64,000 bases of DNA, taken from a virus. Shown here piece by piece: positions 6,941 through 28,249 of this stretch. The stretch's first letter is position 1. Each line of letters begins with the position of its first letter. Made by a program: the position numbers and the translations under genes. The stretch lies in IMG/VR virus record IMGVR_UViG_3300045988_120991, positions 96,001 through 160,000 of that record. The stretch is one strand, 5' to 3'. The notes under the pieces were generated by a model. That model was not told where the DNA came from. It did no database searches and saw nothing but the letters and a program-made list of their open reading frames with translations.

Positions 6941-7774
6941 TCAAATTAGTTTCTCGACATAGTTTCTGTCTTGAGTAAAGATAGGAATTTCATTATCAAT
7001 TACCCACTTACTTCTCTTGATATAACCACAAATATTTCCTACTTCATCATACTCGGTAAGACTATCATCAGCCTTAATGCAGCAGCTACCACGCTTTAGA
7101 GTTGTAGAATAATCATTCCAGTTGATGCCCTTCTGTAGCATAAGCATATCCTGAATGTTGTTGCAAGACTTACCGTGAAGTTCCTTCTGACTGAAGTTTG
7201 CCTGACCTACAGACTGGATAGAGTTGCGAGTGGCATCTTGCTGTCGCCAGATTAGCGCATTGCAAACTTCCTCCTTGGGAATTGTAAAGACACGAGAATC
7301 AAACATAGCACCTTTATTTCTTGCGTTAATGAGAATTTTTGTATATTCGGTTAAATCCTTTGTAATACCACAATCGGCATCAAGATTGTTGTCAATATAC
7401 TTTACAATATTGTCGTTAAATGCTTTATTAAATGCTAGCGTTGCCATACTTGCAGATACACTACACATCTTCTGTAAATTGTTGCCGAACCAAGCGTCAG
7501 TTGTAAGCTCTGCATAGTCAGTAAGCACAAGAGAAATTTCGTCGCTCTGTGTATAGCCAAGGACACAACCTTGGATGTTCTCACAGAGATACTTCATAGT
7601 ATCTTGCATAGTCTTTACAAAAATATCATCAAAAGGTTTTTTCATGCCCTTAGTAAAAGTATGACCAGCTTTCATATCCATTCTAATAATAATCGGCATT
7701 CTACGAGTTAAATAATACCGACTGATATTCTCGTAGTTATTTTTCATACGGTCGCCCAGCGTAGTCTTATCCAT
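6941..7774 (-). CDS. Thg1-like protein (tRNA-His guanylyltransferase / 3'-5' polymerase family)
   Basis: The N-terminus LGDRMKNNYE, the segment RMD..GHTFTKGMKKPFD and the motif GYTQSDEISLV match the Thg1/TLP signature blocks (GDRMK.YE, R.DG..F, KP.D, SDE.S) as I recall them. Confidence 0.8.
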   Translation of the reverse strand: MDKTTLGDRMKNNYENISRYYLTRRMPIIIRMDMKAGHTFTKGMKKPFDDIFVKTMQDTMKYLCENIQGCVLGYTQSDEISLVLTDYAELTTDAWFGNNLQKMCSVSASMATLAFNKAFNDNIVKYIDNNLDADCGITKDLTEYTKILINARNKGAMFDSRVFTIPKEEVCNALIWRQQDATRNSIQSVGQANFSQKELHGKSCNNIQDMLMLQKGINWNDYSTTLKRGSCCIKADDSLTEYDEVGNICGYIKRSKWVIDNEIPIFTQDRNYVEKLI

Positions 7775-7776
7775 CT

Positions 7777-8076
7777 TTAATCCTCCTTAACGATTTCTTC
7801 TAGGCTATTGGTTTGTACATTATAAACGTATGGCATTCCGTTTGGTGCATAATAAGGAGACATATAACCGTAACCAGAATTTCCAGCACATTCATTAAAA
7901 AGTATATATACGATTTTTGTATTCGTATCATAATATAAATCTTGCATCATTGTAGGCTGTAGCCTACCATTGGTGCGTGTTGTATAACCTTTAGAACCAG
8001 CAAATGTGGCACTACACCCAGCTAGACAAAAAACAAGAAATACAGTTAGAATCAACGCAATAATTTTATTTCGCAT
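7777..8076 (-). CDS. lipoprotein (99 aa)
   Basis: I trimmed the track ORF to ATG 8076 (AAGGAG 8 nt upstream). The signal peptide ends in the lipobox LAGC. Confidence 0.65.
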   Translation of the reverse strand: MRNKIIALILTVFLVFCLAGCSATFAGSKGYTTRTNGRLQPTMMQDLYYDTNTKIVYILFNECAGNSGYGYMSPYYAPNGMPYVYNVQTNSLEEIVKED

Positions 8077-8614
8077 TAGTCTTGCTCCTTTCAATAATTT
8101 CATCAAGTGTTCTTGGCCAATATTCCATCCAAGGCATCATGCAACCAACATTGATAATATTGCCGCAGTTATCACTATTTGTTTGTTTGCTATCCTTTAG
8201 CTCCTTCGTCCACTTTTCAACAAAATCCTGCTCTCTTGTTACATGAGTGTGTCCATGCAGCATATAGCAGTTCGGATTATAAGATGCTTTATAACACATA
8301 ATTGGATAGTGACACATAATAACATGTCGCCCACAGTCTGTAATTTCTTTATAATCAACCGCTTCTACGATATATTTCTTAACGTCATATGGATAATCCT
8401 TCAAATCATGATTGCCTTTGATGATATGAATATTGCCGTTTAGCAGCTTTAGATACTTAATCCAATCATCCTTCTTTCCCCAGCAAAAATCTCCAAGATG
8501 ATACACATGGTCTGCATTACTTATAACTGAATTCCAGTTGTTGACTAGTGCTTCGTTCATCTCATCAATTGTTCCAAACGGTCTGTTATCAAATCTGATA
8601 ACATTTTTATGCAT
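8066..8614 (-). CDS. calcineurin-like metallophosphoesterase
   Basis: Motifs HLGDF, GNHD and GHTH occur in the canonical order. Confidence 0.75.
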   Translation of the reverse strand: MHKNVIRFDNRPFGTIDEMNEALVNNWNSVISNADHVYHLGDFCWGKKDDWIKYLKLLNGNIHIIKGNHDLKDYPYDVKKYIVEAVDYKEITDCGRHVIMCHYPIMCYKASYNPNCYMLHGHTHVTREQDFVEKWTKELKDSKQTNSDNCGNIINVGCMMPWMEYWPRTLDEIIERSKTNAK

Positions 8615-11404: not shown

Positions 11405-12280
11405 TTAATGTGCTGCAAGGTCTGCTTCGTGAAGCAAATCCACAGAATTTTTAAGATATGCTGGAAGATTTTTATAACACTTTTCATTTAGAAATGGTGC
11501 CATATGAGTGCTTACAAGCCAAGCAACATCTATTCTGATTTCATCTGCAACAAGACCATATATCATATATGCTCCAACGCATTGATGCTGATAGAAGTGT
11601 GCAGTATCGCTCGGTTCACCTTTTGCATTAACGAATGCTTTGACATATGGTTTACCAACATCGTGAAATGATGCTGCAAGTGCCATAATGTTATCACACA
11701 TATCGTTATTTACAATATACTTATATGCCGACTCACAATGATTGTAAATATCTAAAGTATGATGTGGGTTATCATGTAGAATTCGCATGGCCTCTGTAGA
11801 ATCATCTATGTATTTTTGCATATCAAATCCATCTGGAAAAATGACTCTAATTTTATCAATGCCTTCATCATAATAAGGAGCTTGAAAACGCTTAAGCATT
11901 CTGTCAATAACTTCTTTACCAACAGTACGTTCTCTTGCGGCATCACGTTCAATGCAAGTTTCAATAGGTGCCCAAATAATATGGCATTCAATTTGTGCAA
12001 ACCTTGGGCACTTTGTAATGATGCTAGCTCTATCTTTTCTTGTGATATTTGTAGCATCATAGATGACATCAAAACCATTATTCAATAACATAATTGCTCT
12101 ATCCTGCATCAATGCAAATACATCTGAAGGATTTCCCTGTATATTTTCATCTCCATATAGTTCTTTTCTGATAGCATCAGAAGACAGATGATATGTATAG
12201 CTATTTTTCATTTTTTCTGCATAAGTGGTTTTCCCAGAACCAGGAATTCCACAAAGAAGTATTAGTACAGGTCTAGTCAT
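11405..12280 (-). CDS. P-loop polynucleotide-kinase-like domain fused to an HD phosphohydrolase domain (RNA end-healing candidate)
   Basis: The N-terminus carries Walker A GIPGSGKTTYA. The C-terminus carries HD-domain elements (H...LAASFHDVGKP...H) resembling the HD domains of CCA-adding enzymes. Confidence 0.7.
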   Translation of the reverse strand: MTRPVLILLCGIPGSGKTTYAEKMKNSYTYHLSSDAIRKELYGDENIQGNPSDVFALMQDRAIMLLNNGFDVIYDATNITRKDRASIITKCPRFAQIECHIIWAPIETCIERDAARERTVGKEVIDRMLKRFQAPYYDEGIDKIRVIFPDGFDMQKYIDDSTEAMRILHDNPHHTLDIYNHCESAYKYIVNNDMCDNIMALAASFHDVGKPYVKAFVNAKGEPSDTAHFYQHQCVGAYMIYGLVADEIRIDVAWLVSTHMAPFLNEKCYKNLPAYLKNSVDLLHEADLAAH

Positions 12281-12528: not shown

Positions 12529-14007
12529 TTAATTCTCCTCCTCATTAATCTCTTCTTGTGCTTCTTCCATATCAGGAGTAGTTGCCTCAGCCTTTACTAG
12601 ACCCTCAAGACACTTAAATGCAAAGTTCTTATGTTTATATGCGCAGAATTTAGGCTTATTCACAATACGAACTACTACACCCTCGCGTACATGAATCTTG
12701 CCAATAGGATCGGGGCCATCATAATATTGCTCTGCAATATTTTTAATCCATTCACCAGGGGTCCCTTCACGACAGACTCTCCAAGTGCCATGCTCGCCAT
12801 AACAATCATAACCTTCTTCAAGACCCTCATCAGCGGGGATAAAACCTCTCCACAACATCGGGACACATTTACAACCCATTTGCTCACAACGATAACGCAT
12901 GAAGTCAGGAGAATACTCTACTACATCTCCGTCTTCATTTGTCATAGTCATACGATAAACATAAAAGTCAGACTGAGGAACTTCTCTTTCAGTGATACCA
13001 ATACCTTCTTTGCCGTCTGGATTACAGCCATAAGAGAAAGTCGTAGTCTTACCATACTGCTTCACAAATTCCTTATCATTGAGCTTCTTATTATCAGCGG
13101 TTGCCATAATAGGAGTGCTAGTATGGGTGAACCCAACTACCTCATAGTAGACCTCTTCACCCTTATGTAGTTTGCCCTCAAAGAACTTGGAGTGCTGTTC
13201 GCGGAACTCATTAGAGCCATAGTAGCCGCCATCAAAATTCTCAAGAACGGTACGACGAGTACCAGACACATAGCCCCAATTATAAATAGGAGTTGCAGAA
13301 GAAAGTCCAAGATTCGCGAACTTCTGAGTTATAGCACCAACTTTATCACCAGACATTACCGCATCGAGAGCAGCTTGATAGATACGGTTTGTACATCTGT
13401 AACCCTTAAATACAGGTAAATAGCCGGTGCGCTGAGAAGTACCATGCATCTTTAGAGTGATTTCAATCTGGTCTCCCGCCTGAAAAGCTCCAAGATTATA
13501 GGCTAGCTGTTCAGTATCAGCATGTTCAGTAAACAGAGGTGCGATAGGAACCTTCTTCTTACGAGTATGATTACCATTTGTAGCATGACCACTACGGGTA
13601 TTTCTGCGAGGAATGTACTTAGCGCAAATCTCATGTCCATTGAATGTAGTAATAACATCTCCAACTTTTAGATTGGATACGTCACCAAAAGATTCTAAGC
13701 AAGCCAATGGTAGAAATAGACCATCTGACTTTTCACCACGAAGCCTAATAGAAGTTACATTGCGCTTGTCTGGGTCCATATAACCGCCAATGTTATTACC
13801 ATCTACATCCTTCTTACGAAGCAAATTATTAGTATCTGCAAACTCAACAGAAAGTTGACCATCCGTAGGGAAATATACACCAATCTGACCGTCTGTATAT
13901 TCCATACTTACACAAACCGTATTGCCAAAACACTCACCAAGCTGTAATCTGTCTGCGTTAGGATGCTTACGCAGATTTTTAATTGTTGTTACATACGCAT
14001 TATACAT
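12529..14007 (-). CDS. RNA ligase (Rnl2-like nucleotidyltransferase) with N-terminal tRNA-binding OB domain
   Basis: The N-terminal LRKHPNADRLQLG matches the HPNAD[KR]L hallmark of Trbp111/EMAPII-type tRNA-binding domains. The ligase motifs are I ITLKMHGTS (KxHGT), IV REGVVVRI and V YKHKNFAF. Confidence 0.8.
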   Translation of the reverse strand: MYNAYVTTIKNLRKHPNADRLQLGECFGNTVCVSMEYTDGQIGVYFPTDGQLSVEFADTNNLLRKKDVDGNNIGGYMDPDKRNVTSIRLRGEKSDGLFLPLACLESFGDVSNLKVGDVITTFNGHEICAKYIPRRNTRSGHATNGNHTRKKKVPIAPLFTEHADTEQLAYNLGAFQAGDQIEITLKMHGTSQRTGYLPVFKGYRCTNRIYQAALDAVMSGDKVGAITQKFANLGLSSATPIYNWGYVSGTRRTVLENFDGGYYGSNEFREQHSKFFEGKLHKGEEVYYEVVGFTHTSTPIMATADNKKLNDKEFVKQYGKTTTFSYGCNPDGKEGIGITEREVPQSDFYVYRMTMTNEDGDVVEYSPDFMRYRCEQMGCKCVPMLWRGFIPADEGLEEGYDCYGEHGTWRVCREGTPGEWIKNIAEQYYDGPDPIGKIHVREGVVVRIVNKPKFCAYKHKNFAFKCLEGLVKAEATTPDMEEAQEEINEEEN

Positions 14008-17076: not shown

Positions 17077-17121
17077 TTAATTTTGTACTGTAATTATAAC
17101 AGATATTTTCTATTTGTCAAG
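17077..17121 (-). promoter_or_regulatory. sigma-70-type promoter with conserved downstream box
   Basis: The minus strand reads CTTGACAAATAGAAAATATCTGTTATAATTACAGTACAAAATTAATTTAGGAAGG. Confidence 0.75.
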
Positions 17122-18241
17122 ATGTTCTTAACCTTTCAATAAGTTTTTTTAGAATTTTAGCAATGTCAGAAATATCATGCTGATTCAATGTTTCGTCCAA
17201 TGTAATACGAATCGTGCTTAAAGCTTCTGCATCTGTAAGTCCAATAGCTTTTAACGTGCTACTTGGCACAGTCTCCCCACTACTACAAGCAGAACCCGCA
17301 GAGATATAAATCCCACACATACTTGCTAGAGTCACAAGGTCACTAGCTTTTACTCCATCAATACGAACAGAAATATTATTGCACAGACGATTAGTATCAA
17401 GTTCTGGACCATTTAGATGTACTCCAGGAATTTCAAGAATTTTCTTTGCAAGTTCATCCCTATTAAATCTAGTACAAATGTTTGTATAGTCGTGTAACGT
17501 TCCTCTATTAATCTCTAGTGCTTTACCCATAGCTGCTATTGCAGGAGTATTTTCAGTTCCTCCTCGTTTGTGTAATTCTTGACTTCCATAAATAATCGGT
17601 GATAAATCAATTGTATCTTTGCAGTATAAAAATCCTGCACCTCTTCCACCTCTAAACTTCTGTGCTGAAATACTCATCATATCTATTCTAAGCTTATCAA
17701 CATCAATTCTTGATTCAGGGAAATATTGAACGGCATCCACATGTAATATACAATTATATTTATGCGTAATATATGAAATAGATTTAATATCTTGGAGTGT
17801 TCCAATTTCAGAGTTTGCATACTGAATACTAACAATAGAATTATTATGTTCTTTTATTGTATCTTCTAAAATATTTGCATCAATATTTCCAAATTCATCT
17901 ACTGGAATATAATGTACATTAGTAAATTTATGATGATTTAAAATTTCACTAATAGATTTATGCTCTAATTGTGTCGTTATAATAGTGTCAAAATTTGTTC
18001 CACAAAGTGCTAAAGTGTTTGCCTCTACTCCACCACTTGTGAAAATTATTTCTTTAGGTTCACAATTAATGTCTGCTGCAATTTGATCTCTTACATTTTC
18101 AATTATATTTTTAGCATCTTGCCCCATCTCATGAGTCGAAGATGGGTTGCCATAATGATTATACATTACATCGGCAACCACATCTACAACTTCTTTGTAT
18201 GGTTGAGTAGTAGATGCGCAATCTAAAAAGTATTTCTTCAT
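17117..18241 (-). CDS. cysteine desulfurase (class V aminotransferase, NifS/IscS-like)
   Basis: The PLP-lysine region is SISAQKFRGGRGAGFLY and the active-site loop is SAGSACSSG. Confidence 0.85.
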   Translation of the reverse strand: MKKYFLDCASTTQPYKEVVDVVADVMYNHYGNPSSTHEMGQDAKNIIENVRDQIAADINCEPKEIIFTSGGVEANTLALCGTNFDTIITTQLEHKSISEILNHHKFTNVHYIPVDEFGNIDANILEDTIKEHNNSIVSIQYANSEIGTLQDIKSISYITHKYNCILHVDAVQYFPESRIDVDKLRIDMMSISAQKFRGGRGAGFLYCKDTIDLSPIIYGSQELHKRGGTENTPAIAAMGKALEINRGTLHDYTNICTRFNRDELAKKILEIPGVHLNGPELDTNRLCNNISVRIDGVKASDLVTLASMCGIYISAGSACSSGETVPSSTLKAIGLTDAEALSTIRITLDETLNQHDISDIAKILKKLIERLRTS

Positions 18242-18777: not shown

Positions 18778-20007
18778 TTACATATAAATTGGATGTAGTT
18801 CGCATAGTTGACGAGCTATATCGGAGATATATTTCTTATTGCCATCGAAGTCTTTGATGGCCAACGAAATAAGTCCCGCCACATTTCTTGCGTCAAACTT
18901 ATCAAAGCCACGTGTAGTAATTGCGGGAGTCCCAATACGAAGACCACTAGTTACAAATGTGGATAGAGGGTCGTTAGGAATTGAATTTTTATTCGTTGTA
19001 ATGTTTACACTATCGAGCTTCTCCTGTAATTCTTTGCCAGTAATTCCTGTGTCTCTAAGGTCTAGAATCATTAGATGATTATCTGTTCCACCAGAAATAA
19101 GCTTAATGCCGTTTGTTTTAAATACACTTGCCATAGCCTTTGCATTATTAATAACATTATTCTGATATTCTGCAAATTCTGTCTTCAGTGCTTCACCAAA
19201 ACATACTGCCTTTGCTGCAATTATATGTTCTAGTGGACCGCCCTGAGTACCAGGAAATACTGCCGAATCAATCTTCTTTGCAAGTTTACTCTTGCACAAA
19301 ATAACTGCACCACGAGGGCCTCTCATGGATTTATGAGTCGTAAATGTGCAAACATCAGCATAAGGGACAGGACTTGGATGTACACCTCCTGCTACAAGTC
19401 CAGCAATATGCGCCATGTCTACAAAGAGATAAGCGCCTACTTCATCTGCAATTTCACGGAACTTTGCAAAATCAATGATACGCGGATATGCAGAAGCTCC
19501 TGCCAAAATCATCTTAGGCTTGTTATTTAGTGCAAGGTCCCTCACATTATCATAGTCAATAAAGCCATTTTCGCCTACTCCATAACGAACTACGTTAAAG
19601 TACTTGCCAGAAATGTTGAATGGTGCTCCGTGACTGAGATGCCCACCAGCAGAAAGATCCATGGACAGAACGGTATCACCAGGGGATAATAGTGCATAAA
19701 ATACTGCCAAATTTGCGCTTGCTCCTGAATGCGGCTGCACGTTTGCATGTTCTGCTCCAAATAGCTTTTTACAACGTTCAATTGCAAGAAGTTCTACTTC
19801 ATCAATATACTGACATCCACCATAGTATCTCGCATGAGGCTTTCCTTCTGCGTATTTATTGGTTAGAACAGATGACATTGCGTCAAGAACTGCTGGAGAC
19901 ACAATGTTTTCTGATGCAATAAGTTCGATTGTACCACGCTGCCTGTTAAGTTCTTTCAAACAAATATCGTATACTTCTACATCTTGCTTTTTTAGGTTGT
20001 CTAGCAT
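18778..20007 (-). CDS. glyA: serine hydroxymethyltransferase
   Basis: It shows full-length SHMT similarity, including the PLP-lysine motif [12 protein letters not shown] moved the start to ATG 20007 (AAGGAG 8 nt upstream); the track start at 20016 is GTG. Confidence 0.95.
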
Positions 20008-20025
20008 TATATTCACTCCTTACTT

Positions 20026-23579: not shown

Positions 23580-23627
23580 ATATCACAGGGCAGCTTTAAG
23601 GTGATGCCCAGCACCATACTTAACTCC

Positions 23628-25181
23628 TTAAGAGTTCTTCAATGCGGCTTCCACCGCATCATATCTATCACTCATAAGCGTCTCAACGAGGCACTCATAA
23701 GGATTGGTCTTACCACTCATAACCATCTTGCAGACATTAGTGGAGAATCCACTAACAAGAGCAACACCAAGGTCATTCTCCTTTATAGGAATAGTTCCAG
23801 TGCGAGAATTTACATTCCAGAAGACTAGTCTAGGCATCTGATACCCAGCATCCTCGAAACGCTTCTTGATTACCTTAAAAAGTTTTGCATTAGGTCTATT
23901 AAGACCATATCTAGCGGAACCGTCACAAGTTGCACAAGAGTCAAACTCCATATCTGAAATAATCAGTACGTTCTTAGGCATATCCTCTTGCTTCATATGA
24001 CCATTCACCGCAGTAGTAAGAATCAAATCAAACACCTTTTCAATGTTTGTATTTGAACACTCGTCATGACCATATGCAACACGTAACTTATCTCTCAGAG
24101 AATCGCACTGACTAAAATCAACCAACTGAGGTCTGCTAGAGAAAGTAATGTATTTATCCTTAAAGTCTCCAGAAGAATGTTCTGCAAAGTAAATCGCAAG
24201 TGCATTTGCAACTTCAAGTGCAGTAACACGGCTACTTCCACCAACGTTGCAACACATAGAACCAGAGCCATCTGCAACTACAATGGTGTTTCCACATTCA
24301 TTTACTGTGTTAGGCAAAGCTTTCCAAAGAGATTCAAGAGTTGCATCGTATTTGCCGATACCGCCGTACCATCCAGTTGCACTAGAATACTTATGCACAA
24401 TGTCGTGAGGGAACAAAGTTCCAGCATTAATCTTAGTTTCGCCCTTTTCAAGCTTACTCAGATACTCTCTGCGACGCTCCTCATCATTACGAAGGAAAGC
24501 TCCGTTATAAATGAGATTTGCACGAGAAGGAACTGTTTCGTACTTAATGTCTCCCCATTTCTTTGCAGACATCTTGCCCTCTACAATATCAATGTAAGAA
24601 CGCAGAGAAGAAAGTGTCTTACGATACTCACGCTCAGTCATACCAAGATTCTTGCAAATGTATCTTGCATCCATCTTAGTTTTTGCAGAAGAAGCATTCA
24701 CAGAAGGAAGCCACTTGGCAAGAAGAGATACGGGCTTATTATCAGCCATATTTGCAATATCATCAGTGAGCTGCTTTTTGATGATGTCAAAAATAATACC
24801 ATCTACGTCTGTACCAAACAGACACCACAGGTCATCATAACGACCATACTCACTCACCAGAGGAGCAAGATGCTTAACAATATCAACGTCATCCTTTGCC
24901 ATATTCTTAATAATCGCTCTGAACAAACGTCTTTCACCAAGACCACCACGAACATCTCTGGCGAAGAACAGCCAACGTAGAGCCATCATTTTATCTTCAA
25001 AATAAGCCTTAGTAAACTTATTATAGATATTCTCCTCACTCATACCACGCATAGAAGAAACTGCAAAGTTTAGGTCAACCAGTTCCTTACCAGAGGTACG
25101 ATACCCAAGAGCGCCATTCTCAGTTACTGAATAGTTGAAATCCTCGTTCAGAGTATTCTTTACTGCATTCATAAAAGACAT
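23628..25181 (-). CDS. DUF2828-like protein: helical N-domain plus C-terminal vWA domain with MIDAS motif (Ro60/TROVE-like architecture)
   Basis: I trimmed the track ORF to ATG 25181 (TGGAGGAAAGAAA upstream). The N-terminus reads NYSVTENGALGYRTSGKELVDLNF...RDVRGGLGER. The vWA MIDAS motif is VVADGSGSM. Confidence 0.6.
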   Translation of the reverse strand: MSFMNAVKNTLNEDFNYSVTENGALGYRTSGKELVDLNFAVSSMRGMSEENIYNKFTKAYFEDKMMALRWLFFARDVRGGLGERRLFRAIIKNMAKDDVDIVKHLAPLVSEYGRYDDLWCLFGTDVDGIIFDIIKKQLTDDIANMADNKPVSLLAKWLPSVNASSAKTKMDARYICKNLGMTEREYRKTLSSLRSYIDIVEGKMSAKKWGDIKYETVPSRANLIYNGAFLRNDEERRREYLSKLEKGETKINAGTLFPHDIVHKYSSATGWYGGIGKYDATLESLWKALPNTVNECGNTIVVADGSGSMCCNVGGSSRVTALEVANALAIYFAEHSSGDFKDKYITFSSRPQLVDFSQCDSLRDKLRVAYGHDECSNTNIEKVFDLILTTAVNGHMKQEDMPKNVLIISDMEFDSCATCDGSARYGLNRPNAKLFKVIKKRFEDAGYQMPRLVFWNVNSRTGTIPIKENDLGVALVSGFSTNVCKMVMSGKTNPYECLVETLMSDRYDAVEAALKNS

Positions 25182-25219
25182 TTTCTTTCCTCCATTTTTT
25201 TGATTTATTTCTAAATCCC

Positions 25220-25420
25220 AAGACACATTATTATGTACAATCTCCACATTAAAAATTTGCTGTTAGTGTCTTTGGAGTTTATTCAACGAGACGCCAAAAT
25301 AAAACCATTAGTAAAAATATCATTTTCATCTTTTTAAATTGCTGTAAGCGTCTCTATGTAAGGCAAGGCACCATCAATATAAATCCATATCATATTATGT
25401 AAAGTTGCTGTTAGTGCCTT
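25220..25420 (-). ncRNA. three tandem hairpin units in the 5' leader of the DUF2828-like gene
   Basis: There are three perfect 7-bp stems: AAGGCAC/GTGCCTT (25365..25420), GAGACGC/GCGTCTC (25288..25354) and AAGACAC/GTGTCTT (25220..25272). Each loop opens with T[AT]ACAGCAA-N-TTT. Confidence 0.55.
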
Positions 25421-25426
25421 TTTAAA

Positions 25427-25544
25427 GTCTCCTGACAGGACTTGAACCTGCGACCTCTGGTTTAACAGACCAATTAGAAACTTGCTGTTTAAGGCTTTTA
25501 CAAGTCTCGTTATTAAGCGCTCTATCCGACTGAGCTACAGGAGA
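25427..25544 (-). tRNA. tRNA-Asn(GUU)-like element with a 44-nt insertion between the D-arm and anticodon stem; no encoded CCA
   Basis: The structure is TCTCCTG-TA-GCTC-AGTCGGATA-GAGC-G-[44 nt, 25474..25517]-TTGGT-CTGTTAA-ACCAG-AGGTC-GCAGG-TTCAAGT-CCTGT-CAGGAGA-C. Confidence 0.55.
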
Positions 25545-25582
25545 CATATTTATGAGCAGTTTAACGAGGTGCTCGGCTCACT

Positions 25583-25628
25583 TTAATTTTGTACTGTGAT
25601 TATACCACAGATTACTTATTTTGTCAAG
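25583..25628 (-). promoter_or_regulatory. sigma-70-type promoter with conserved box; likely promoter of the tRNA / DUF2828 operon
   Basis: The minus strand reads CTTGACAAAATAAGTAATCTGTGGTATAATCACAGTACAAAATTAAAGTGAGCC. Confidence 0.75.
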
Positions 25629-25741
25629 TACTTTTTTACTTTTTATTCCAGAGAAGCCATCCACAAGCAACTCCGAACAAGAAACATACAATTTCCTTCA
25701 TCTTTACTTCTTCCTTATTATACCATATTCGGCATCATTTG

Positions 25742-26205: not shown

Positions 26206-26236
26206 TATTATAGCGCATTAATTTTGTTTTGTCAAG
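26206..26236 (-). promoter_or_regulatory. second, tandem promoter with the box inside the spacer
   Basis: The minus strand reads CTTGACAAAACAAAATTAATGCGCTATAATACAAAC (TTGACA, 17-nt spacer, TATAAT). Confidence 0.6.
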
Positions 26237-27380
26237 TATCTTTTTTAAATAATTTTCTAGTTTCTTCATAAGACAGGTACTTAATATTAATGCCCGTCAA
26301 ATTCAGCAGTTTTTCATTTTTAAACTCGTTAACATGAGTTACTGCAAGAGATACCTCATAGGCAATATCCCCAATGTCTTCCTTAATTCTTTGCATAAGC
26401 TCACCAACATCAAGATGCCCATACCGAATGGACCCCTGATACTGGTTTGTAATATTGGTCTTGTCATCAATGTTAATGTTAATCTCCGACTTATCACATT
26501 CACATTCAAAGTCACCAGCACCATGCTTCGTCATATATGTTCTAGTAACATAGCACACTTCAACGTTTGCATTAGGTAAATACTTTTCAATGATTATATG
26601 AGGATTTGCAATGCCAGTATTGCTAGGAGTCGTATTATCATAATACTGAACATGACGCTGATCCAACAGCAATCCTTGCCCATTTTCAAATACGACATTA
26701 TCAAACTTTTGCAAAATCCTACTATAATCAAATACTACATGAGAATGCATAAACTGCGCATCGTCAATAAAGTTATAAATCAAATTGTCGGATGCCAAAA
26801 TATCTTCCCATTCCTGCAAAACTTCAGGACTAGCCTTTAGCAGCCTCTTAGACGTATATTCATCCCTGACACGCTTAAGAAATGCGACCTGCTCGTCCTT
26901 AGTCATATTATAGAACTGCTGGAAAGACGGGCTTGTAGTATTCCTATATCTAAGAACAGTTTCCCAAATACCCATACCACAAGAGCCATACCGATTTTTG
27001 CCACGACTATCCTCAAGGATTTGATTTGTAATCATATCATATGGAGTAGACCATCTGCAATTCCAATGACTATAAACACGAGGTGCATAGCCTAATGCCT
27101 TCAATTCCTCGTACTCTTTTCTAAAAGTCATAGGGTTTAGAATATACTCTTCCCCAAAATAAGTATCTGCTCCCGCAAAGGTTCCTGAACCAAAATGGTG
27201 GAACACATGTCTAATGCCATCTGGAGTAACTACAGTATGTCCTCTTTGTGCGCCGCCATTGCATAGAGCAACGATACAAGATTCATTCCGCTTACTTGCT
27301 TCGGCACAAAAGTAATCGGTCATCAGACCTTTTCCCTCGTCGCCAAAGTTGCTACCAATTACTACCTTAACATTAGACAT
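26232..27380 (-). CDS. adenylosuccinate synthetase family protein, divergent (PurA-like; PurZ candidate)
   Basis: I trimmed the track ORF to ATG 27380 (AAAGGATAAACAC upstream). It has the P-loop GSNFGDEGKG, then NGGAQRGHTVV (compare PurA GGHNAGHT), and the equivalent of the GTTGRGIG block reads YGSCGMGIWET. Confidence 0.75.
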   Translation of the reverse strand: MSNVKVVIGSNFGDEGKGLMTDYFCAEASKRNESCIVALCNGGAQRGHTVVTPDGIRHVFHHFGSGTFAGADTYFGEEYILNPMTFRKEYEELKALGYAPRVYSHWNCRWSTPYDMITNQILEDSRGKNRYGSCGMGIWETVLRYRNTTSPSFQQFYNMTKDEQVAFLKRVRDEYTSKRLLKASPEVLQEWEDILASDNLIYNFIDDAQFMHSHVVFDYSRILQKFDNVVFENGQGLLLDQRHVQYYDNTTPSNTGIANPHIIIEKYLPNANVEVCYVTRTYMTKHGAGDFECECDKSEININIDDKTNITNQYQGSIRYGHLDVGELMQRIKEDIGDIAYEVSLAVTHVNEFKNEKLLNLTGINIKYLSYEETRKLFKKDT

Positions 27381-27394
27381 GTGTTTATCCTTTC

Positions 27395-28249
27395 TTACCA
27401 AGAAATACCTTCACTAGATGTTGCTACATTGCCACCAGAAAACGCATTGGTGACAATATCAATGATGTCATCTGCAATCTTATCAATAGACGTATCCTTC
27501 AGATGGTTCTCGTCCAGAAGCAGCCCAAAAGTCCTATGAACGGCCTCATGATAACGACCATAACCATGCTTAACATACAGATGATAAATGTCAAACTTCT
27601 CAGACGCATTAGCGTAAAGCTGTGCCGTTTCAACATCGCTCTGTAGATTATCACCAGTTACTGCGGATAGAGCCTTCTTCGGCAGATATGGATTCATAGG
27701 CTCGTCACCCATAGTGATAATGACACCCTTCTGTCCACGATTCCAGCAATCTAGCTTCGTGTGATTAAGACCGAAATACCATGCGGCGCTATAAGACTCA
27801 TAATCATTGCCTCCACCACCGCCCTCAAAATAAATCTTATCAAGCTGTTCTGCGATGCGGATATCAGACTCAAACTGTGATGCCTGAATAGGAGCGCAAT
27901 CGTAAGCAAGATCCCCAATGCCCATAACCATGAACTCTACGTCTGCGATATTCTCGTATAGCTTAGTCATTACTACATTGATCTGCTTTGCAACTTCCAT
28001 AGCCGCCTTGCCCATGCTACCAGTTACATCGAGTGCCAGAATAACAGGCTTGGTATTAGGATGTTCCACAGAGTCAACACACTCACGCATTACATTCTTA
28101 GGATTAAGGTCTGCTACTAGCATTTTAGATTTAAAATTGTCCTGCACATTAGAGGACATTCCAGTGACTACACCATCCATTGATACGCTGTACCCCTTGG
28201 TAGTCGCATAAGTGGTAAAAGCATTTTTAGTCCAACTGCCACCGCCCAT
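27395..28249 (-). CDS. vWA-domain protein
   Basis: It has the MIDAS motif LALDVTGSMG and an alpha/beta pattern typical of vWA domains. Confidence 0.7.
   Translation of the reverse strand: MGGGSWTKNAFTTYATTKGYSVSMDGVVTGMSSNVQDNFKSKMLVADLNPKNVMRECVDSVEHPNTKPVILALDVTGSMGKAAMEVAKQINVVMTKLYENIADVEFMVMGIGDLAYDCAPIQASQFESDIRIAEQLDKIYFEGGGGGNDYESYSAAWYFGLNHTKLDCWNRGQKGVIITMGDEPMNPYLPKKALSAVTGDNLQSDVETAQLYANASEKFDIYHLYVKHGYGRYHEAVHRTFGLLLDENHLKDTSIDKIADDIIDIVTNAFSGGNVATSSEGISW

What the first reader, a model, noticed from the sequence alone, without database searches (positions are those of the whole stretch)
25220..25628. tRNA-Asn-like element with a 44-nt internal insertion, followed by three tandem hairpins sharing a TAACAGCAA loop motif
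**Layout.** A strong promoter (25583..25628) drives this RNA. It first forms a nearly complete tRNA-Asn(GUU) cloverleaf (25427..25544) with acceptor, D-arm, anticodon arm TTGGT-CTGTTAA-ACCAG and T-arm GCAGG-TTCAAGT-CCTGT. The cloverleaf carries 44 extra nt (25474..25517) between position 26 and the anticodon stem, and it has no encoded CCA.

**Hairpins.** Three hairpins with perfect 7-bp stems follow it: AAGGCAC/GTGCCTT, GAGACGC/GCGTCTC and AAGACAC/GTGTCTT. Their 39-53 nt AT-rich loops all open with T[AT]ACAGCAA-N-TTT. A fourth copy of the motif (TTAAACAGCAAGTTT) lies inside the tRNA insertion.

**Possible alternative fold.** The AACGAGAC in the insertion is complementary to GTCTCGTT at the 3' arm of the middle hairpin, so alternative long-range pairing is possible.

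**Context.** The array ends about 40 nt before the SD of the Ro60-like gene. No other Asn tRNA is present in the window.
Basis: seen in the sequence. Interest (0 to 1): 0.8.

Follow-up and report, generated by a model that had tools for sequence, protein, structure and literature searches.

The report
Y-RNA-like RNAs for phage Ro60-like protein
Just upstream of a phage gene for a Ro60-like ring protein lies a promoter-driven cluster of four small structured RNAs (one built into a tRNA-shaped scaffold, three stand-alone), and the same RNA module sits beside this gene family in phages of many bacterial phyla, pointing to a widespread RNA-protein partnership, related to Ro60/Y-RNA particles, that I could not find described.

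Summary
A perfect sigma-70 promoter (25627-25599) precedes a tRNA-Asn-shaped element (25544-25428; Rfam tRNA 42.3 bits) with an extra arm in its anticodon stem, then three hairpins. All four units share one module: a covarying 7-bp helix, two spacer bases, an invariant ACAGCAA bulge, then a second helix.

- **Distribution.** The module recurs on the gene strand next to homologues of the downstream gene (DUF2828+DUF7788) in 80 metagenomic phages. It also occurs in 11 of 13 distant cultured phages sampled, including Enterococcus, Listeria, Staphylococcus, Mycobacterium, E. coli and Campylobacter phages.
- **Protein.** An AlphaFold model's best structural matches are all Ro60 proteins, although no sequence similarity is detectable.
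- **Link to YrlA.** In Enterococcus and Mycobacterium phages the same tRNA-like element occurs circularly permuted, giving the architecture of YrlA, the tRNA-like bacterial Y RNA, with sub-threshold Rfam YrlA hits.

I read the locus as an array of Y-RNA-like partners of a divergent Ro60-like protein. It is a new variant of a known kind, with a different motif, protein family and topology. Binding and function are inferred, not shown.

In passing I found tRNA-shaped inserts nested inside three tRNA anticodons, with insert-free alleles in sister phages.

The parts
25599..25627 (-). Sigma-70-type promoter of the RNA array: TTGACA, 17-nt spacer with TG, TATAAT. The transcription start is expected near 25592.
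   Evidence: Scores 12/12. Equivalent strong promoters stand upstream of the array in relatives and in Enterococcus phage EA1.
25553..25580 (-). H-type pseudoknot in the leader. S1 is TGAG/CTCG, the loop is CCGAGCAC, and loop bases GAGC pair with the downstream GCTC.
   Evidence: In a 15-sequence alignment, 86.6% of cells are paired against at most 43% when the partners are slid, and 8 of 10 pairs show compensatory changes. The sequences were hand-picked, so the evidence is moderate.
25428..25544 (-). tRNA-Asn(GUU)-shaped Y-RNA-like element. It has acceptor, D arm, split anticodon stem, anticodon loop CTGTTAA and T arm, and carries the module as an extra arm between positions 28 and 29.
   Evidence: Rfam tRNA scores 42.3 bits. 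Across 19 homologues 95% of cells are paired and 19 of 28 pairs covary. It is a circular permutation of the YrlA-like RNA of phage EA1, with 86/118 identical.
25472..25515 (-). Embedded module: linker TAATAAC, hairpin GAGACTT-GTAA-AAGCCTT (6 of 7 pairs), AA, ACAGCAA (25488..25482), linker GTTTCTAATT.
   Evidence: Alignment A4 and pair counts. RNAfold prefers an alternative 9-bp hairpin that covers GCAA, so this copy is atypical.
25364..25420 (-). Stand-alone module 1: AAGGCAC, TA, ACAGCAA (25411..25405), 33-nt interior, GTGCCTT, G.
   Evidence: My covariance model (R1) gives 48.7 bits, E = 4.5e-10 (this copy was in the training set). Fold z-score is -3.4. Conserved in L017-L031.
25287..25354 (-). 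Stand-alone module 2: GAGACGC, TT, ACAGCAA (25345..25339), 44-nt interior, GCGTCTC, G.
   Evidence: My covariance model (R1) gives 48.9 bits, E = 4e-10 (in the training set). L031 (L013/L015 in the first fetch) has a deletion that fuses this module's 5' arm to module 3's 3' arm while keeping the pairing.
25219..25272 (-). Stand-alone module 3: AAGACAC, TA, ACAGCAA (25263..25257), 30-nt interior, GTGTCTT, G. It ends 26 nt before the Shine-Dalgarno sequence (ribosome-binding site).
   Evidence: My covariance model (R1) gives 45.7 bits (in the training set). The orthologous module in L029/L030 has a Lys(UUU)-like anticodon-stem-loop tip, TAAGA-CTTTTAA-TCTTA.
23628..25181 (-). Gene for the predicted protein partner: 517 aa, Pfam DUF2828 + DUF7788, PHROG 850 'RNA-binding protein', Ro60-like predicted fold. 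The Shine-Dalgarno sequence GGAGG is at 25193..25189.
   Evidence: Pfam and PHROGs. AlphaFold2 model with pLDDT 69. Foldseek top six hits are all Ro60, E = 1e-7 to 2e-5. 710 phage records carry homologues.

Best explanation
**What it is.** The locus is an array of four Y-RNA-like non-coding RNAs, expressed from its own strong promoter. I predict they are the RNA partners of the Ro60-like ring protein (DUF2828/DUF7788 family) encoded immediately downstream.

**The shared module.** Each unit carries the same stem-bulge-stem module:
- a 7-bp helix, free in sequence except for a conserved G-C pair at position 3 and a mostly C-G pair at position 5;
- one or two spacer bases;
- an invariant single-stranded AC-N-GCAA, almost always ACAGCAA;
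- a second, U/A-rich helix, with a conserved G after the 3' strand of the first helix.

This is the same design as the Ro60-binding site of known Y RNAs: a helix, then an internal loop with a conserved 5'-strand motif (GNCGAA or CGAA), then another helix. I take it to be the docking site for the protein.

**What the module is attached to.**
- In the first unit it is grafted as a side arm into the anticodon stem of an otherwise complete tRNA-Asn-shaped RNA. The open acceptor end should let RNase P and 3'-processing enzymes cut it out of the precursor.
- In the other three units the module closes a short hairpin. In many relatives this hairpin is tipped by an anticodon-stem-loop look-alike or by a whole tRNA-like body.

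**How it probably works.** By analogy with Ro60/Y RNA particles, the RNA would tether the ring protein to tRNA-binding host or phage factors, gate its cavity, or both. This would serve phage tRNA and RNA-repair biology or counter-defence.

**Shown versus inferred.**
- Shown: the structures, their conservation and covariation, their strand-specific linkage to the gene family, the Ro60-like predicted fold, and the permutation relationship to YrlA-like RNAs.
- Inferred: RNA-protein binding, processing, and biological role.
For: **Linkage to the gene.**
- ACAGCAA occurs 478 times on the gene strand and 22 times on the opposite strand in 85 loci.
- My covariance model (R1) gives 116 hits at E <= 0.01 in 46 loci, all on the gene strand.
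- In the 64-kb window the only hits are the three modules next to the gene.
- In the complete 89-kb genome of Staphylococcus phage S-CoN_Ph3, which was not in the training set and has only one tRNA, there are exactly three hits. They start 17 nt after the homologous gene's stop.
- Modules lie within 4 kb on the same strand in 11 of 13 distant phages sampled: Enterococcus, Bacillus, Listeria, Mycobacterium, E. coli, Staphylococcus, Aeromonas, Ralstonia, Campylobacter and Fusobacterium phages, and weakly a Synechococcus phage.
- Of exact-pattern matches in IMG/VR, 12 of 30 with the partner strand have the gene in the fetched stretch, against 2 of 53 chance-like matches.

**RNA-level structure.**
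- All 7 helix pairs covary, with 112 compensatory cells and G-U pairs.
- In register, 26% of motifs have a perfect partner, against 1.5-2.4% at control offsets.
- The cloverleaf plus embedded hairpin covaries.
- Folds give helix, 5' bulge, helix.

**Protein.** The top six Foldseek PDB hits are all Ro60: Thermus phage phiLo, D. radiodurans, Xenopus and human. Mycobacteriophage homologues are annotated 'Ro-like RNA binding protein'.

**Link to known Y RNAs.**
- Permuted versions in Enterococcus phage EA1 and mycobacteriophage Lumos hit Rfam YrlA at 47.8 and 39.3 bits, E = 8e-8 and 2e-5.
- They align end-to-end with the permuted window and L029 elements.
- Known Y RNAs have a 5'-3' stem flanking a bulge with a CGAA motif (PMC12135203; PMC4201824).

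**Trans-acting RNA.** In EA1 the array has its own promoter and an intrinsic terminator before the gene. In Lumos, SUSP1 and the Staphylococcus phage the modules lie downstream of the gene.

**tRNA mimicry.**
- 47 of 117 module interiors have an anticodon-stem-loop-like hairpin, against 3.3 in shuffles.
- Close relatives keep a canonical tRNA-Asn as well.

**Context.** The window encodes an RNA ligase, a PNK-like kinase with an HD domain, and a Thg1-like enzyme.
Against: - No binding or expression data exist. The partnership rests on co-location and analogy.
- The protein has no detectable sequence similarity to TROVE/Ro60.
- The structural model is only moderate: pLDDT 69, TM-score 0.35-0.50.
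- The window gives no Rfam YrlA or Y_RNA hit even at E <= 10.
- The conserved motif differs from GNCGAA, and the motif sits inside the closing helix rather than at the same place as in YrlA.
- The embedded copy in the window has a mismatched helix and a competing 9-bp hairpin.
- The window's three stand-alone copies lack the anticodon-loop-like tips seen in relatives.
- 18 of 30 bona fide modules found by pattern had no homologous gene in the (often short) fetched stretch.
- Vibrio phage nt-1 and an Erwinia jumbo phage have the gene but no module within 4 kb.
- In the window no terminator separates the array from the gene, so a cis role cannot be excluded.
Confidence: 0.7

Rival explanations
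1. Cis-regulatory leader. The modules are binding sites in the 5' untranslated region through which the protein (or another factor) controls translation or stability of its own mRNA. They would not be free-standing RNAs.
For: In the window, and in most close relatives, the array runs up to 26 nt from the Shine-Dalgarno sequence (ribosome-binding site) with no terminator in between. The array and the gene share a strand everywhere.
Against: - In Enterococcus phage EA1 a terminator and a second promoter separate the array from the gene.
- In mycobacteriophage Lumos, E. coli phage SUSP1 and Staphylococcus phage S-CoN_Ph3 the modules lie downstream of the gene.
- In Bacillus phage PJN02 they are scattered over 2.5 kb among tRNAs.
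- The tRNA-shaped member has processable ends.
Confidence: 0.1
2. Ordinary tRNA-Asn gene interrupted by a removable intron. The three hairpins would be spacer or processing structures of a tRNA operon.
For: - The cloverleaf is nearly perfect and the anticodon loop CTGTTAA is kept.
- No other tRNA-Asn is in the window.
- Three other tRNAs in the same window do carry true intervening sequences, with insert-free alleles in relatives.
Against: - The insertion is in the anticodon stem (positions 28/29), not the loop.
- It is the same module as in the stand-alone hairpins.
- It has nothing in common with the tRNA-shaped inserts of the other three tRNAs.
- No insert-free allele was seen in 80 loci.
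- 11 of 16 close relatives carry a canonical tRNA-Asn as well.
- The discriminator base varies (C, G, A).
- Permuted versions with a closed acceptor stem exist.
Confidence: 0.07
3. Protein-independent decoys. The RNAs act alone as anticodon-stem-loop or tRNA mimics that soak up host tRNA-cleaving defence nucleases. Their position next to the DUF2828 gene would reflect only a shared tRNA-related gene neighbourhood.
For: - Anticodon-stem-loop-like tips are strongly enriched, 47 of 117 against 3.3 in shuffles. Lys(UUU) is the commonest, and it is the classical target of anticodon nucleases (my own knowledge of PrrC).
- tRNA arrays and RNA-repair genes are nearby.
Against: - This does not explain the invariant ACAGCAA bulge and helix, which are the conserved core, while the tips vary or are absent, as in the window.
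- In a phage with a single tRNA the modules still abut the gene.
Confidence: 0.08
4. DNA-level repeats: operators, iterons or ends of a small mobile element, rather than RNA.
For: Inverted repeats with a fixed adjacent motif, in tandem copies. One deletion occurred between copies (L031; L013/L015 in the first fetch).
Against: - Extreme strand bias, 478 to 22.
- Helix sequences differ between copies while keeping pairing, including G-U pairs that do not work in DNA.
- The array is placed behind consensus promoters.
Confidence: 0.02

Closest known systems
YrlA, the tRNA-like bacterial Y RNA (Rfam RF02553; Chen et al. 2014, PMC4201824)
   Same: - Encoded next to, and on the same strand as, a Ro60-type gene.
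- Modular: a stem/internal-loop module with a short conserved 5'-strand motif, joined at the anticodon-stem position to a tRNA-like body with authentic D and T arms.
- Often accompanied by shorter Y RNAs (YrlB).
- Permuted relatives of this element in Enterococcus and Mycobacterium phages score 36-48 bits on the YrlA model.
   Different: - The motif is AC-N-GCAA, not GNCGAAN0-1G.
- The motif lies inside a closing 7-bp helix.
- The window's element is not permuted: order D arm then T arm, open acceptor end, module closed by a loop.
- It retains an anticodon loop.
- The protein is DUF2828/DUF7788, not TROVE.
- No YrlA hit in the window at E <= 10.
Thermus phage phiLo Ro60 with Yrl1/Yrl2 (PMC12135203; PDB 9L5Y)
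   Same: - A phage-encoded Ro60-type ring protein with two Y-RNA-like genes directly upstream.
- The RNAs are stem-bulge-stem with a short conserved motif in the bulge.
- It is the best structural match of the window protein's model (E = 1e-7).
   Different: - phiLo Ro60 is recognisable as Ro60, whereas the window protein shows no sequence match to it.
- The motif is CGAA rather than ACAGCAA.
- No tRNA-shaped member is described there.
Metazoan and Deinococcus Y RNAs with Ro60
   Same: Ring protein plus small RNAs in which a bulged helix formed by the 5' and 3' ends is the protein-binding site and the rest of the RNA recruits other factors (for example PNPase), as summarised in PMC4201824 and PMC12135203.
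   Different: Different sequences, different protein family at sequence level, and a phage context. A tethering partner is unknown here.
Canonical tRNA-Asn (Rfam RF00005)
   Same: Acceptor, D arm, anticodon loop CUGUUAA, variable loop AGGUC and T arm. Scores above the Rfam gathering threshold.
   Different: - A 44-nt structured arm interrupts the anticodon stem.
- ARAGORN rejects it.
- Canonical tRNA-Asn genes coexist with it in relatives.
- It is therefore probably a mimic, not a decoder.
Bas63 gp130 (Felixounavirus; PhageMaP preprint PMC11482910)
   Same: Described there as structurally Ro60-like, directly upstream of the tRNA block, and needed to counter the Ppl defence system. The authors guessed that some 'tRNAs' might be Y RNAs. 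Felix O1-type phages are among the homologue hits here, and SUSP1 carries modules among its tRNAs.
   Different: I did not verify directly that gp130 is homologous to the window protein. No RNA partner was identified in that work.

Membership tests
YrlA / bacterial Y RNA (RF02553) | Encoded within about 4 kb of a Ro60 gene, on the same strand | tested here: met
   The array ends 38 nt before the start codon of the gene on the same strand. The same linkage holds in 46 of 46 loci searched. The gene is Ro60-like only by predicted fold.
YrlA / bacterial Y RNA (RF02553) | GNCGAAN0-1G motif near the 5' end (PMC4201824) | tested here: not met
   The invariant motif is ACAGCAA (family form AC-N-GCAA). 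No GNCGAA is present in the modules.
YrlA / bacterial Y RNA (RF02553) | Permuted tRNA-like domain: T arm, closed acceptor-like stem-loop, then D arm | tested here: not met
   The window element has the normal order with an open acceptor. The feature is met in relatives EA1 and Lumos, which are circular permutations of it.
YrlA / bacterial Y RNA (RF02553) | Score at or above the Rfam gathering threshold (69 bits) | tested here: not met
   No hit in 25150-25700 at E <= 10. Relatives score 28-48 bits.
YrlA / bacterial Y RNA (RF02553) | Bound by the Ro60 protein in vivo | not testable with these tools
   Needs immunoprecipitation or EMSA.
tRNA (RF00005) | Cloverleaf scoring above the gathering threshold | tested here: met
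   42.3 bits against 29. Covariation in the acceptor, anticodon and T stems.
tRNA (RF00005) | Uninterrupted 5-bp anticodon stem and a length compatible with decoding; called by a tRNA finder | tested here: not met
   A 44-nt arm lies between positions 28 and 29. ARAGORN does not call it.
tRNA (RF00005) | Aminoacylation and use in translation | not testable with these tools
   The discriminator varies among homologues (C, G, A). Canonical tRNA-Asn genes coexist with it in relatives.
Ro60 / TROVE protein family (for the neighbouring gene) | TROVE domain detectable by sequence | tested here: not met
   Pfam gives only DUF2828 and DUF7788. No Ro60 is found in PDB sequence or profile searches.
Ro60 / TROVE protein family (for the neighbouring gene) | Alpha-helical repeat ring plus a vWA domain (fold) | tested here: met
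   The six best Foldseek PDB hits are full-length Ro60 structures (E = 1e-7 to 2e-5), followed only by vWA domains. The model is of moderate quality, pLDDT 69.
Known tRNA introns (group I; archaeal bulge-helix-bulge) | Insert in or next to the anticodon loop with ribozyme core or bulge-helix-bulge motif; insert-free alleles | tested here: not met
   The insert is in the stem. There is no Rfam ribozyme or intron hit. No insert-free allele was found in 80 loci.

The most novel reading that the evidence does not exclude
The Ro60-like protein and these RNAs form a phage counter-defence particle. The invariant ACAGCAA module would anchor the protein, while the variable tips (anticodon-stem-loop look-alikes, most often Lys-UUU, or whole tRNA bodies such as the window's Asn-shaped one) act as bait for host tRNA-targeting nucleases or other tRNA-binding defence proteins. 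The bait could trap them, sense them, or hand damaged tRNA to the phage's own ligase, kinase and Thg1-like repair enzymes.

The unpermuted tRNA-shaped member would then be the ancestral form from which permuted YrlA-type Y RNAs arose, by tandem duplication and trimming.
Probability: 0.2. Interest if true: 0.9.

Novelty: new variant of a known kind. Interest (0 to 1): 0.72.

Why it matters
**Scale.** Homologues of the protein occur in at least 710 sequenced phages, including well-studied groups: Felix O1-like coliphages and Salmonella phages, Listeria P100/A511-type phages, Staphylococcus, Enterococcus and Bacillus phages, cluster L mycobacteriophages and Campylobacter phages.

**Annotation.** The RNA modules beside the gene are unannotated. 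Some are mis-annotated as tiny ORFs or as 'tRNA-Undet'.

**A tractable system.**
- Recognising them as a Y-RNA-like family gives these 'RNA-binding' or 'vWA' proteins a concrete RNA ligand with a simple testable core: a helix plus ACAGCAA.
- It extends the Ro60/Y RNA principle to a protein family that sequence methods do not link to Ro60.
- It offers genetically tractable phage systems, one with a reported anti-defence phenotype, for the long-open question of what the tRNA-like domains of bacterial Y RNAs do.

**Origin of YrlA.** The circular-permutation relationship suggests how YrlA-type RNAs arose from tRNA genes.

**Side observation.** The tRNA-shaped inserts nested in tRNA anticodons may be a separate new class of intervening sequence.

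Tried and rejected
- **Nucleotide search of 23600-25700 against GenBank phages:** no match. Relatives had to be found through the protein.
- **PDB sequence and profile searches with the protein:** nothing relevant. Only the fold comparison was informative.
- **Rfam at permissive thresholds on the region:** only tRNA was hit. There was no YrlA, Y_RNA, ribozyme or riboswitch.
present but not conserved in L029/L030, so rejected as a functional alternative fold.
- **The 41-codon ORF 25547..25422 that spans the tRNA-like element:** it has no Shine-Dalgarno sequence, and a 1-nt indel in L018 and others shifts the frame. Rejected as coding.
- **Terminator or attenuator reading of the hairpins:** no U-tracts, and the scan finds none on this strand.
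- **First impression that the embedded helix is degenerate in the window:** the alignment shows 6 of 7 pairs, so that impression was wrong.
- **DNA-level repeat reading:** rejected on strand bias and G-U covariation.
- **Literature searches** for DUF2828, Ro-like phage proteins, phage Y RNAs and phage tRNA introns found no description of this RNA family.
- **Supplementary phage list of Chen et al. 2014** is not held. I could not check whether any DUF2828-type phages were already counted there as YrlA hosts.
- **Two review look-ups failed**.
- **Bas63 accession** was not found, so homology of gp130 to the window protein was not verified.
Full report
**1. What is in the sequence.**

On the minus strand, a perfect sigma-70 promoter (TTGACA, 17 nt with TG, TATAAT; 25627..25599) is followed by a roughly 48-nt leader.

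Next comes a 117-nt element that the Rfam tRNA model accepts at 42.3 bits (gathering score 29), but only by skipping 57 nt inside the anticodon arm. ARAGORN does not call it.

Three hairpins follow, with perfect 7-bp stems. In each, the enclosed sequence begins NN-ACAGCAA. A fourth ACAGCAA lies inside the tRNA-like element.

The array ends 26 nt before the Shine-Dalgarno sequence (ribosome-binding site) of a 517-aa gene (23628..25181).

**2. The neighbouring protein.**

- Pfam gives DUF2828 + DUF7788, not TROVE. PHROGs gives family 850, 'RNA-binding protein'.
- Sequence and profile searches of the PDB find no Ro60.
- An AlphaFold2 model built on 18 homologues (pLDDT 69) has as its six best PDB matches only Ro60 structures: Thermus phage phiLo, Deinococcus Rsr, Xenopus and human. 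These are aligned over their full length (E = 1e-7 to 2e-5). The next hits are isolated vWA domains.
- tblastn finds homologues (33-41% identity) in 710 phage records from many host phyla. Cluster L mycobacteriophages annotate theirs as 'Ro-like RNA binding protein'.

So 'Ro60-like' is supported as a remote, fold-level relationship only.

**3. Conservation of the RNA.**

Two scans of IMG/VR gave 80 distinct loci with the protein at 59-98% identity. All close relatives keep the tRNA-like element and the hairpins. More distant ones show the same parts in changing numbers and arrangements.

The common denominator is a module made of:
- a 7-bp helix, in which a G-C pair at position 3 and a mostly C-G pair at position 5 are conserved and the rest is free;
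- one or two spacer bases;
- AC-N-GCAA (almost always ACAGCAA);
- a U-rich stretch that pairs with an A-rich stretch just before the 3' strand of the helix;
- a conserved G after the helix.

Folding gives helix, then a 10-12-nt bulge on the 5' strand, then a second helix and an apical hairpin.

**4. Is it more than chance, and is it RNA?**

- ACAGCAA occurs 478 times on the gene strand and 22 times on the other strand in 85 loci (550 kb).
- 26% of motifs have a perfect Watson-Crick 7-mer partner in register, against 1.5-2.4% for control registers.
- In 61 non-redundant modules all seven helix pairs show two-sided changes, with 112 compensatory cells including G-U pairs. The set was selected for pairing, so only the covariation counts as evidence, not the percentage paired.
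- My covariance model (R1), built from that set, finds in the 64-kb window only the three known modules (these were in the training set).
- It finds 116 hits at E <= 0.01 in 46 loci, every one on the gene strand.
- It finds exactly three hits in the whole 89-kb genome of Staphylococcus phage S-CoN_Ph3. This phage was not in the training set and has a single tRNA. The hits start 17 nt after the stop of the homologous gene and are annotated there as tiny ORFs.

**5. Breadth.**

Modules lie within 4 kb on the same strand as the gene in these phages:

| Phage | Modules and position |
|---|---|
| Enterococcus EA1 | 3, upstream |
| Bacillus PJN02 | at least 4, among tRNAs |
| Listeria List-36 | 3, upstream |
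| Mycobacterium Lumos | 3, downstream |
| E. coli SUSP1 | 3-4, among tRNAs |
| Staphylococcus S-CoN_Ph3 | 3, downstream |
| Aeromonas LAh_9 | at least 3, upstream |
| Ralstonia RSP15 | 2 |
| Campylobacter F358 | 2, upstream |
| Fusobacterium Fnu1 | 1, upstream |
| Synechococcus B23 | weak signal |
| Vibrio nt-1 | none |
| Erwinia jumbo phage | none |

In EA1 the array has its own promoter and an intrinsic terminator, and the gene has a separate promoter. This argues for trans-acting RNAs.

A blind pattern scan of IMG/VR found 30 bona fide modules, 12 with the gene in the fetched stretch. Of 53 chance-like matches, only 2 had it.

**6. The tRNA-shaped member.**

Nineteen homologues align well.
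- The cloverleaf plus an embedded hairpin is 95% paired, and 19 of 28 pairs covary.
- The two base pairs below the insertion (27:43, 28:42) and the three above it (29-31:39-41) covary separately. This places the extra arm between positions 28 and 29.
- In the window the embedded helix is GAGACTT/AAGCCTT (6 of 7 pairs). RNAfold prefers a competing 9-bp hairpin, so this copy is somewhat atypical.
- Eleven of 16 close relatives also encode a canonical tRNA-Asn(GUU), and the discriminator base varies. An arm inside the anticodon stem is unlikely to be compatible with decoding; this last point is my inference from general knowledge of tRNA-ribosome contacts.

**7. Relation to YrlA, the tRNA-like bacterial Y RNA.**

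In EA1, Lumos, PJN02 and SUSP1 some modules enclose, in this order: T arm, acceptor 3' strand, a short loop, acceptor 5' strand, D arm. That is the YrlA architecture described by Chen et al. (PMC4201824).

Rfam YrlA hits these below threshold but significantly: 47.8, 39.3 and 35.8 bits, with E-values down to 8e-8.

If the L029 or window element is cut in the loop of its embedded helix and its acceptor ends are joined, it aligns end-to-end with the EA1 RNA: 92/120 and 86/118 identical. Unpermuted, only half-length alignments result.

The window's element is therefore the unpermuted topological isomer of a YrlA-like RNA. A tandem duplication followed by trimming would convert one form into the other (inference).

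**8. tRNA mimicry in the short members.**

Of 117 distinct module interiors, 47 contain a 5-bp stem with a 7-nt Y-U-NNN-R-N loop, against 3.3 in shuffles. The 'anticodons' are UUU (15), UGA (7), GCU, UGG and CAU (4 each), GUU (3) and others. Some interiors hold whole or partial tRNAs. The window's three short modules lack such tips. The orthologue of module 3 in L029/L030 has a Lys-like one.

**9. Interpretation.**

Known Y RNAs are described as a 5'-3' stem flanking a bulge with a short conserved motif that Ro60 contacts (GNCGAA or CGAA; GGUCCGA in vertebrates). A second module recruits other factors (PMC4201824, PMC12135203).

The present family has the same logic, with a different motif, a different (remote) protein family and variable topology. 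I therefore read the locus as an array of Y-RNA-like partners of the Ro60-like protein.

Binding is inferred from strict co-location and analogy. The role is unknown. Three points of context bear on it:
- The window encodes an RNA ligase (PHROG 968, E = 4e-62), a PNK-like kinase with an HD domain, a phosphoesterase, a Thg1-like enzyme (E = 2e-90) and a cysteine-desulfurase-like protein, downstream of a block of at least 17 tRNA genes.
- RtcB lies near the gene in the Listeria phage.
- A preprint reports that the Ro60-like gp130 of coliphage Bas63, upstream of its tRNAs, counters the Ppl defence system (PMC11482910). I did not verify that gp130 is a homologue.

**10. Rivals.**

- A cis-acting leader is possible in the window but contradicted by other arrangements.
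- An intron-bearing tRNA-Asn is contradicted by the stem position, the shared module, the lack of insert-free alleles and the coexisting canonical tRNA-Asn.
- Protein-independent decoys do not explain the invariant core.
- DNA repeats are excluded by strand bias and G-U covariation.

**11. Side findings.**

*Nested inserts in tRNA anticodons.* Three tRNAs in the window are split inside the anticodon by inserts of 47, 49 and 73 nt. Sister phages have insert-free alleles that match the in-silico spliced genes:

| tRNA | Split between | Match to insert-free allele |
|---|---|---|
| Leu-UAA | 34/35 | 84/86 |
| Gln-UUG | 35/36 | 67/71 |
| Ile-UAU | 34/35 | insert-free Ile(UAU) genes present in relatives (L023-L027, L031); not aligned |

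- Each insert has a 7-bp terminal helix that covaries between alleles.
- Each has a contiguous 5-bp hairpin with loop GGCAGNA and an NCCA-like tail.
- The 73-nt insert folds as a full cloverleaf.
- These inserts are unrelated to the ACAGCAA module.

*Pseudoknot.* A small covarying pseudoknot sits in the array's leader and again after the gene.

**12. Verdict.**

I class the finding as a new variant of a known kind (Ro60/Y RNA). It is widespread, and I found no description of it in the literature I could search.

Noticed in passing
window 23579-23447 (-), insert 23545-23499; 21143-21024 (-), insert 21109-21061; 22736-22587 (-), insert 22701-22629: Three tRNA genes are interrupted inside the anticodon by inserts of 47, 49 and 73 nt: Leu-UAA and Ile-UAU between positions 34/35, Gln-UUG between 35/36.
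- Closely related phages (L020, L021, L023-L027) carry insert-free alleles; for Leu and Gln these match the in-silico spliced genes (84/86, 67/71 identical).
- Each insert looks like a tRNA or a tRNA top half. It has a 7-bp terminal helix that covaries between alleles, a contiguous 5-bp hairpin with 7-nt loop GGCAGNA, and a tail ACCA, GCCA or ACAA.
- The 73-nt insert folds as a full cloverleaf.
- There is no Rfam hit, and the inserts are far too small for group I introns.
- This is a possible new class of intervening sequence, a tRNA nested in a tRNA. I speculate that it is excised by RNase P-type cleavage and sealed by the phage RNA ligase.
   Followed up: partly
window 25580-25553 (-) and 23615-23588 (-): A small H-type pseudoknot: a 3-4-bp stem with an 8-nt loop whose bases pair with 4-6 nt after an A-rich spacer. 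It stands in the leader of the RNA array and again between the Ro60-like gene and the next tRNA. In a hand-picked 15-sequence alignment 86.6% of cells are paired against at most 43% when slid, and 8 of 10 pairs are compensatory. Function unknown.
   Followed up: partly
L019, L021-L027, L029, L030, L045, L049, L071, L082, L094 (about 150-250 nt upstream of the Asn-like element): Relatives carry a second tRNA-like gene with a Gln-type D arm (AGTCAAGTGGTAAGAC) whose entire anticodon loop is replaced by the ACAGCAA module, ending ...CCAA before the 3' strand of the anticodon stem. It is absent from the window.
   Followed up: partly
window 12529-14007, 11405-12280, 8066-8614, 6941-7774, 17117-18241, 18778-20016 (all -): A cluster of RNA-repair and tRNA-related genes:
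- RNA ligase (PHROG 968, E = 4e-62)
- AAA_33 polynucleotide-kinase-like domain plus HD domain
- phosphoesterase
- Thg1-like tRNA-His guanylyltransferase (E = 2e-90)
- class-V aminotransferase (cysteine-desulfurase-like)
- serine hydroxymethyltransferase

   Followed up: partly
window 26232-27401 (-): A PurA-like protein that matches PHROG 1211, '2-aminooxy adenylosuccinate synthetase' (PurZ-like, E = 2e-62). It hints that this phage may replace adenine by 2-aminoadenine in its DNA. The neighbouring ORFs are uncharacterised, and a DnaE-type polymerase follows.
   Followed up: no
window 25745-25717 (promoter) and 25689-25637 (-): A second perfect 12/12 promoter drives a 17-codon ORF (MKEIVCFLFGVACGWLLWNKK, hydrophobic) immediately upstream of the RNA array. 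It is conserved with substitutions in relatives.
   Followed up: no
L230 8872-8961 and 9091-9219; L226 5869-5978: Public annotations cover the modules with spurious features: two tiny 'hypothetical protein' CDSs in Staphylococcus phage S-CoN_Ph3, and a 110-nt 'tRNA-Undet' in Synechococcus phage B23 that contains ACTGCAA.
   Followed up: partly
L099 1471-2022: Listeria phage List-36 has a near-threshold ROOL RNA match (91.5 bits against a gathering score of 99.1, E = 2e-17) about 1 kb upstream of its DUF2828 gene, and an RtcB ligase gene 1.3 kb downstream of it.
   Followed up: no
L021, L022 (downstream tRNA block): ARAGORN calls a tRNA with anticodon CUA ('Pyl(cta)', an amber-suppressor type) in two close relatives. 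No counterpart was called in the window.
   Followed up: no
L158 about 5130-5000 (-): A free-standing tRNA-like gene with a Lys(UUU) anticodon arm (CCAAA-CTTTTAA-TTTGG), the same unusual T-loop GGCAGTA as the nested inserts, and a CACCA end.
   Followed up: no
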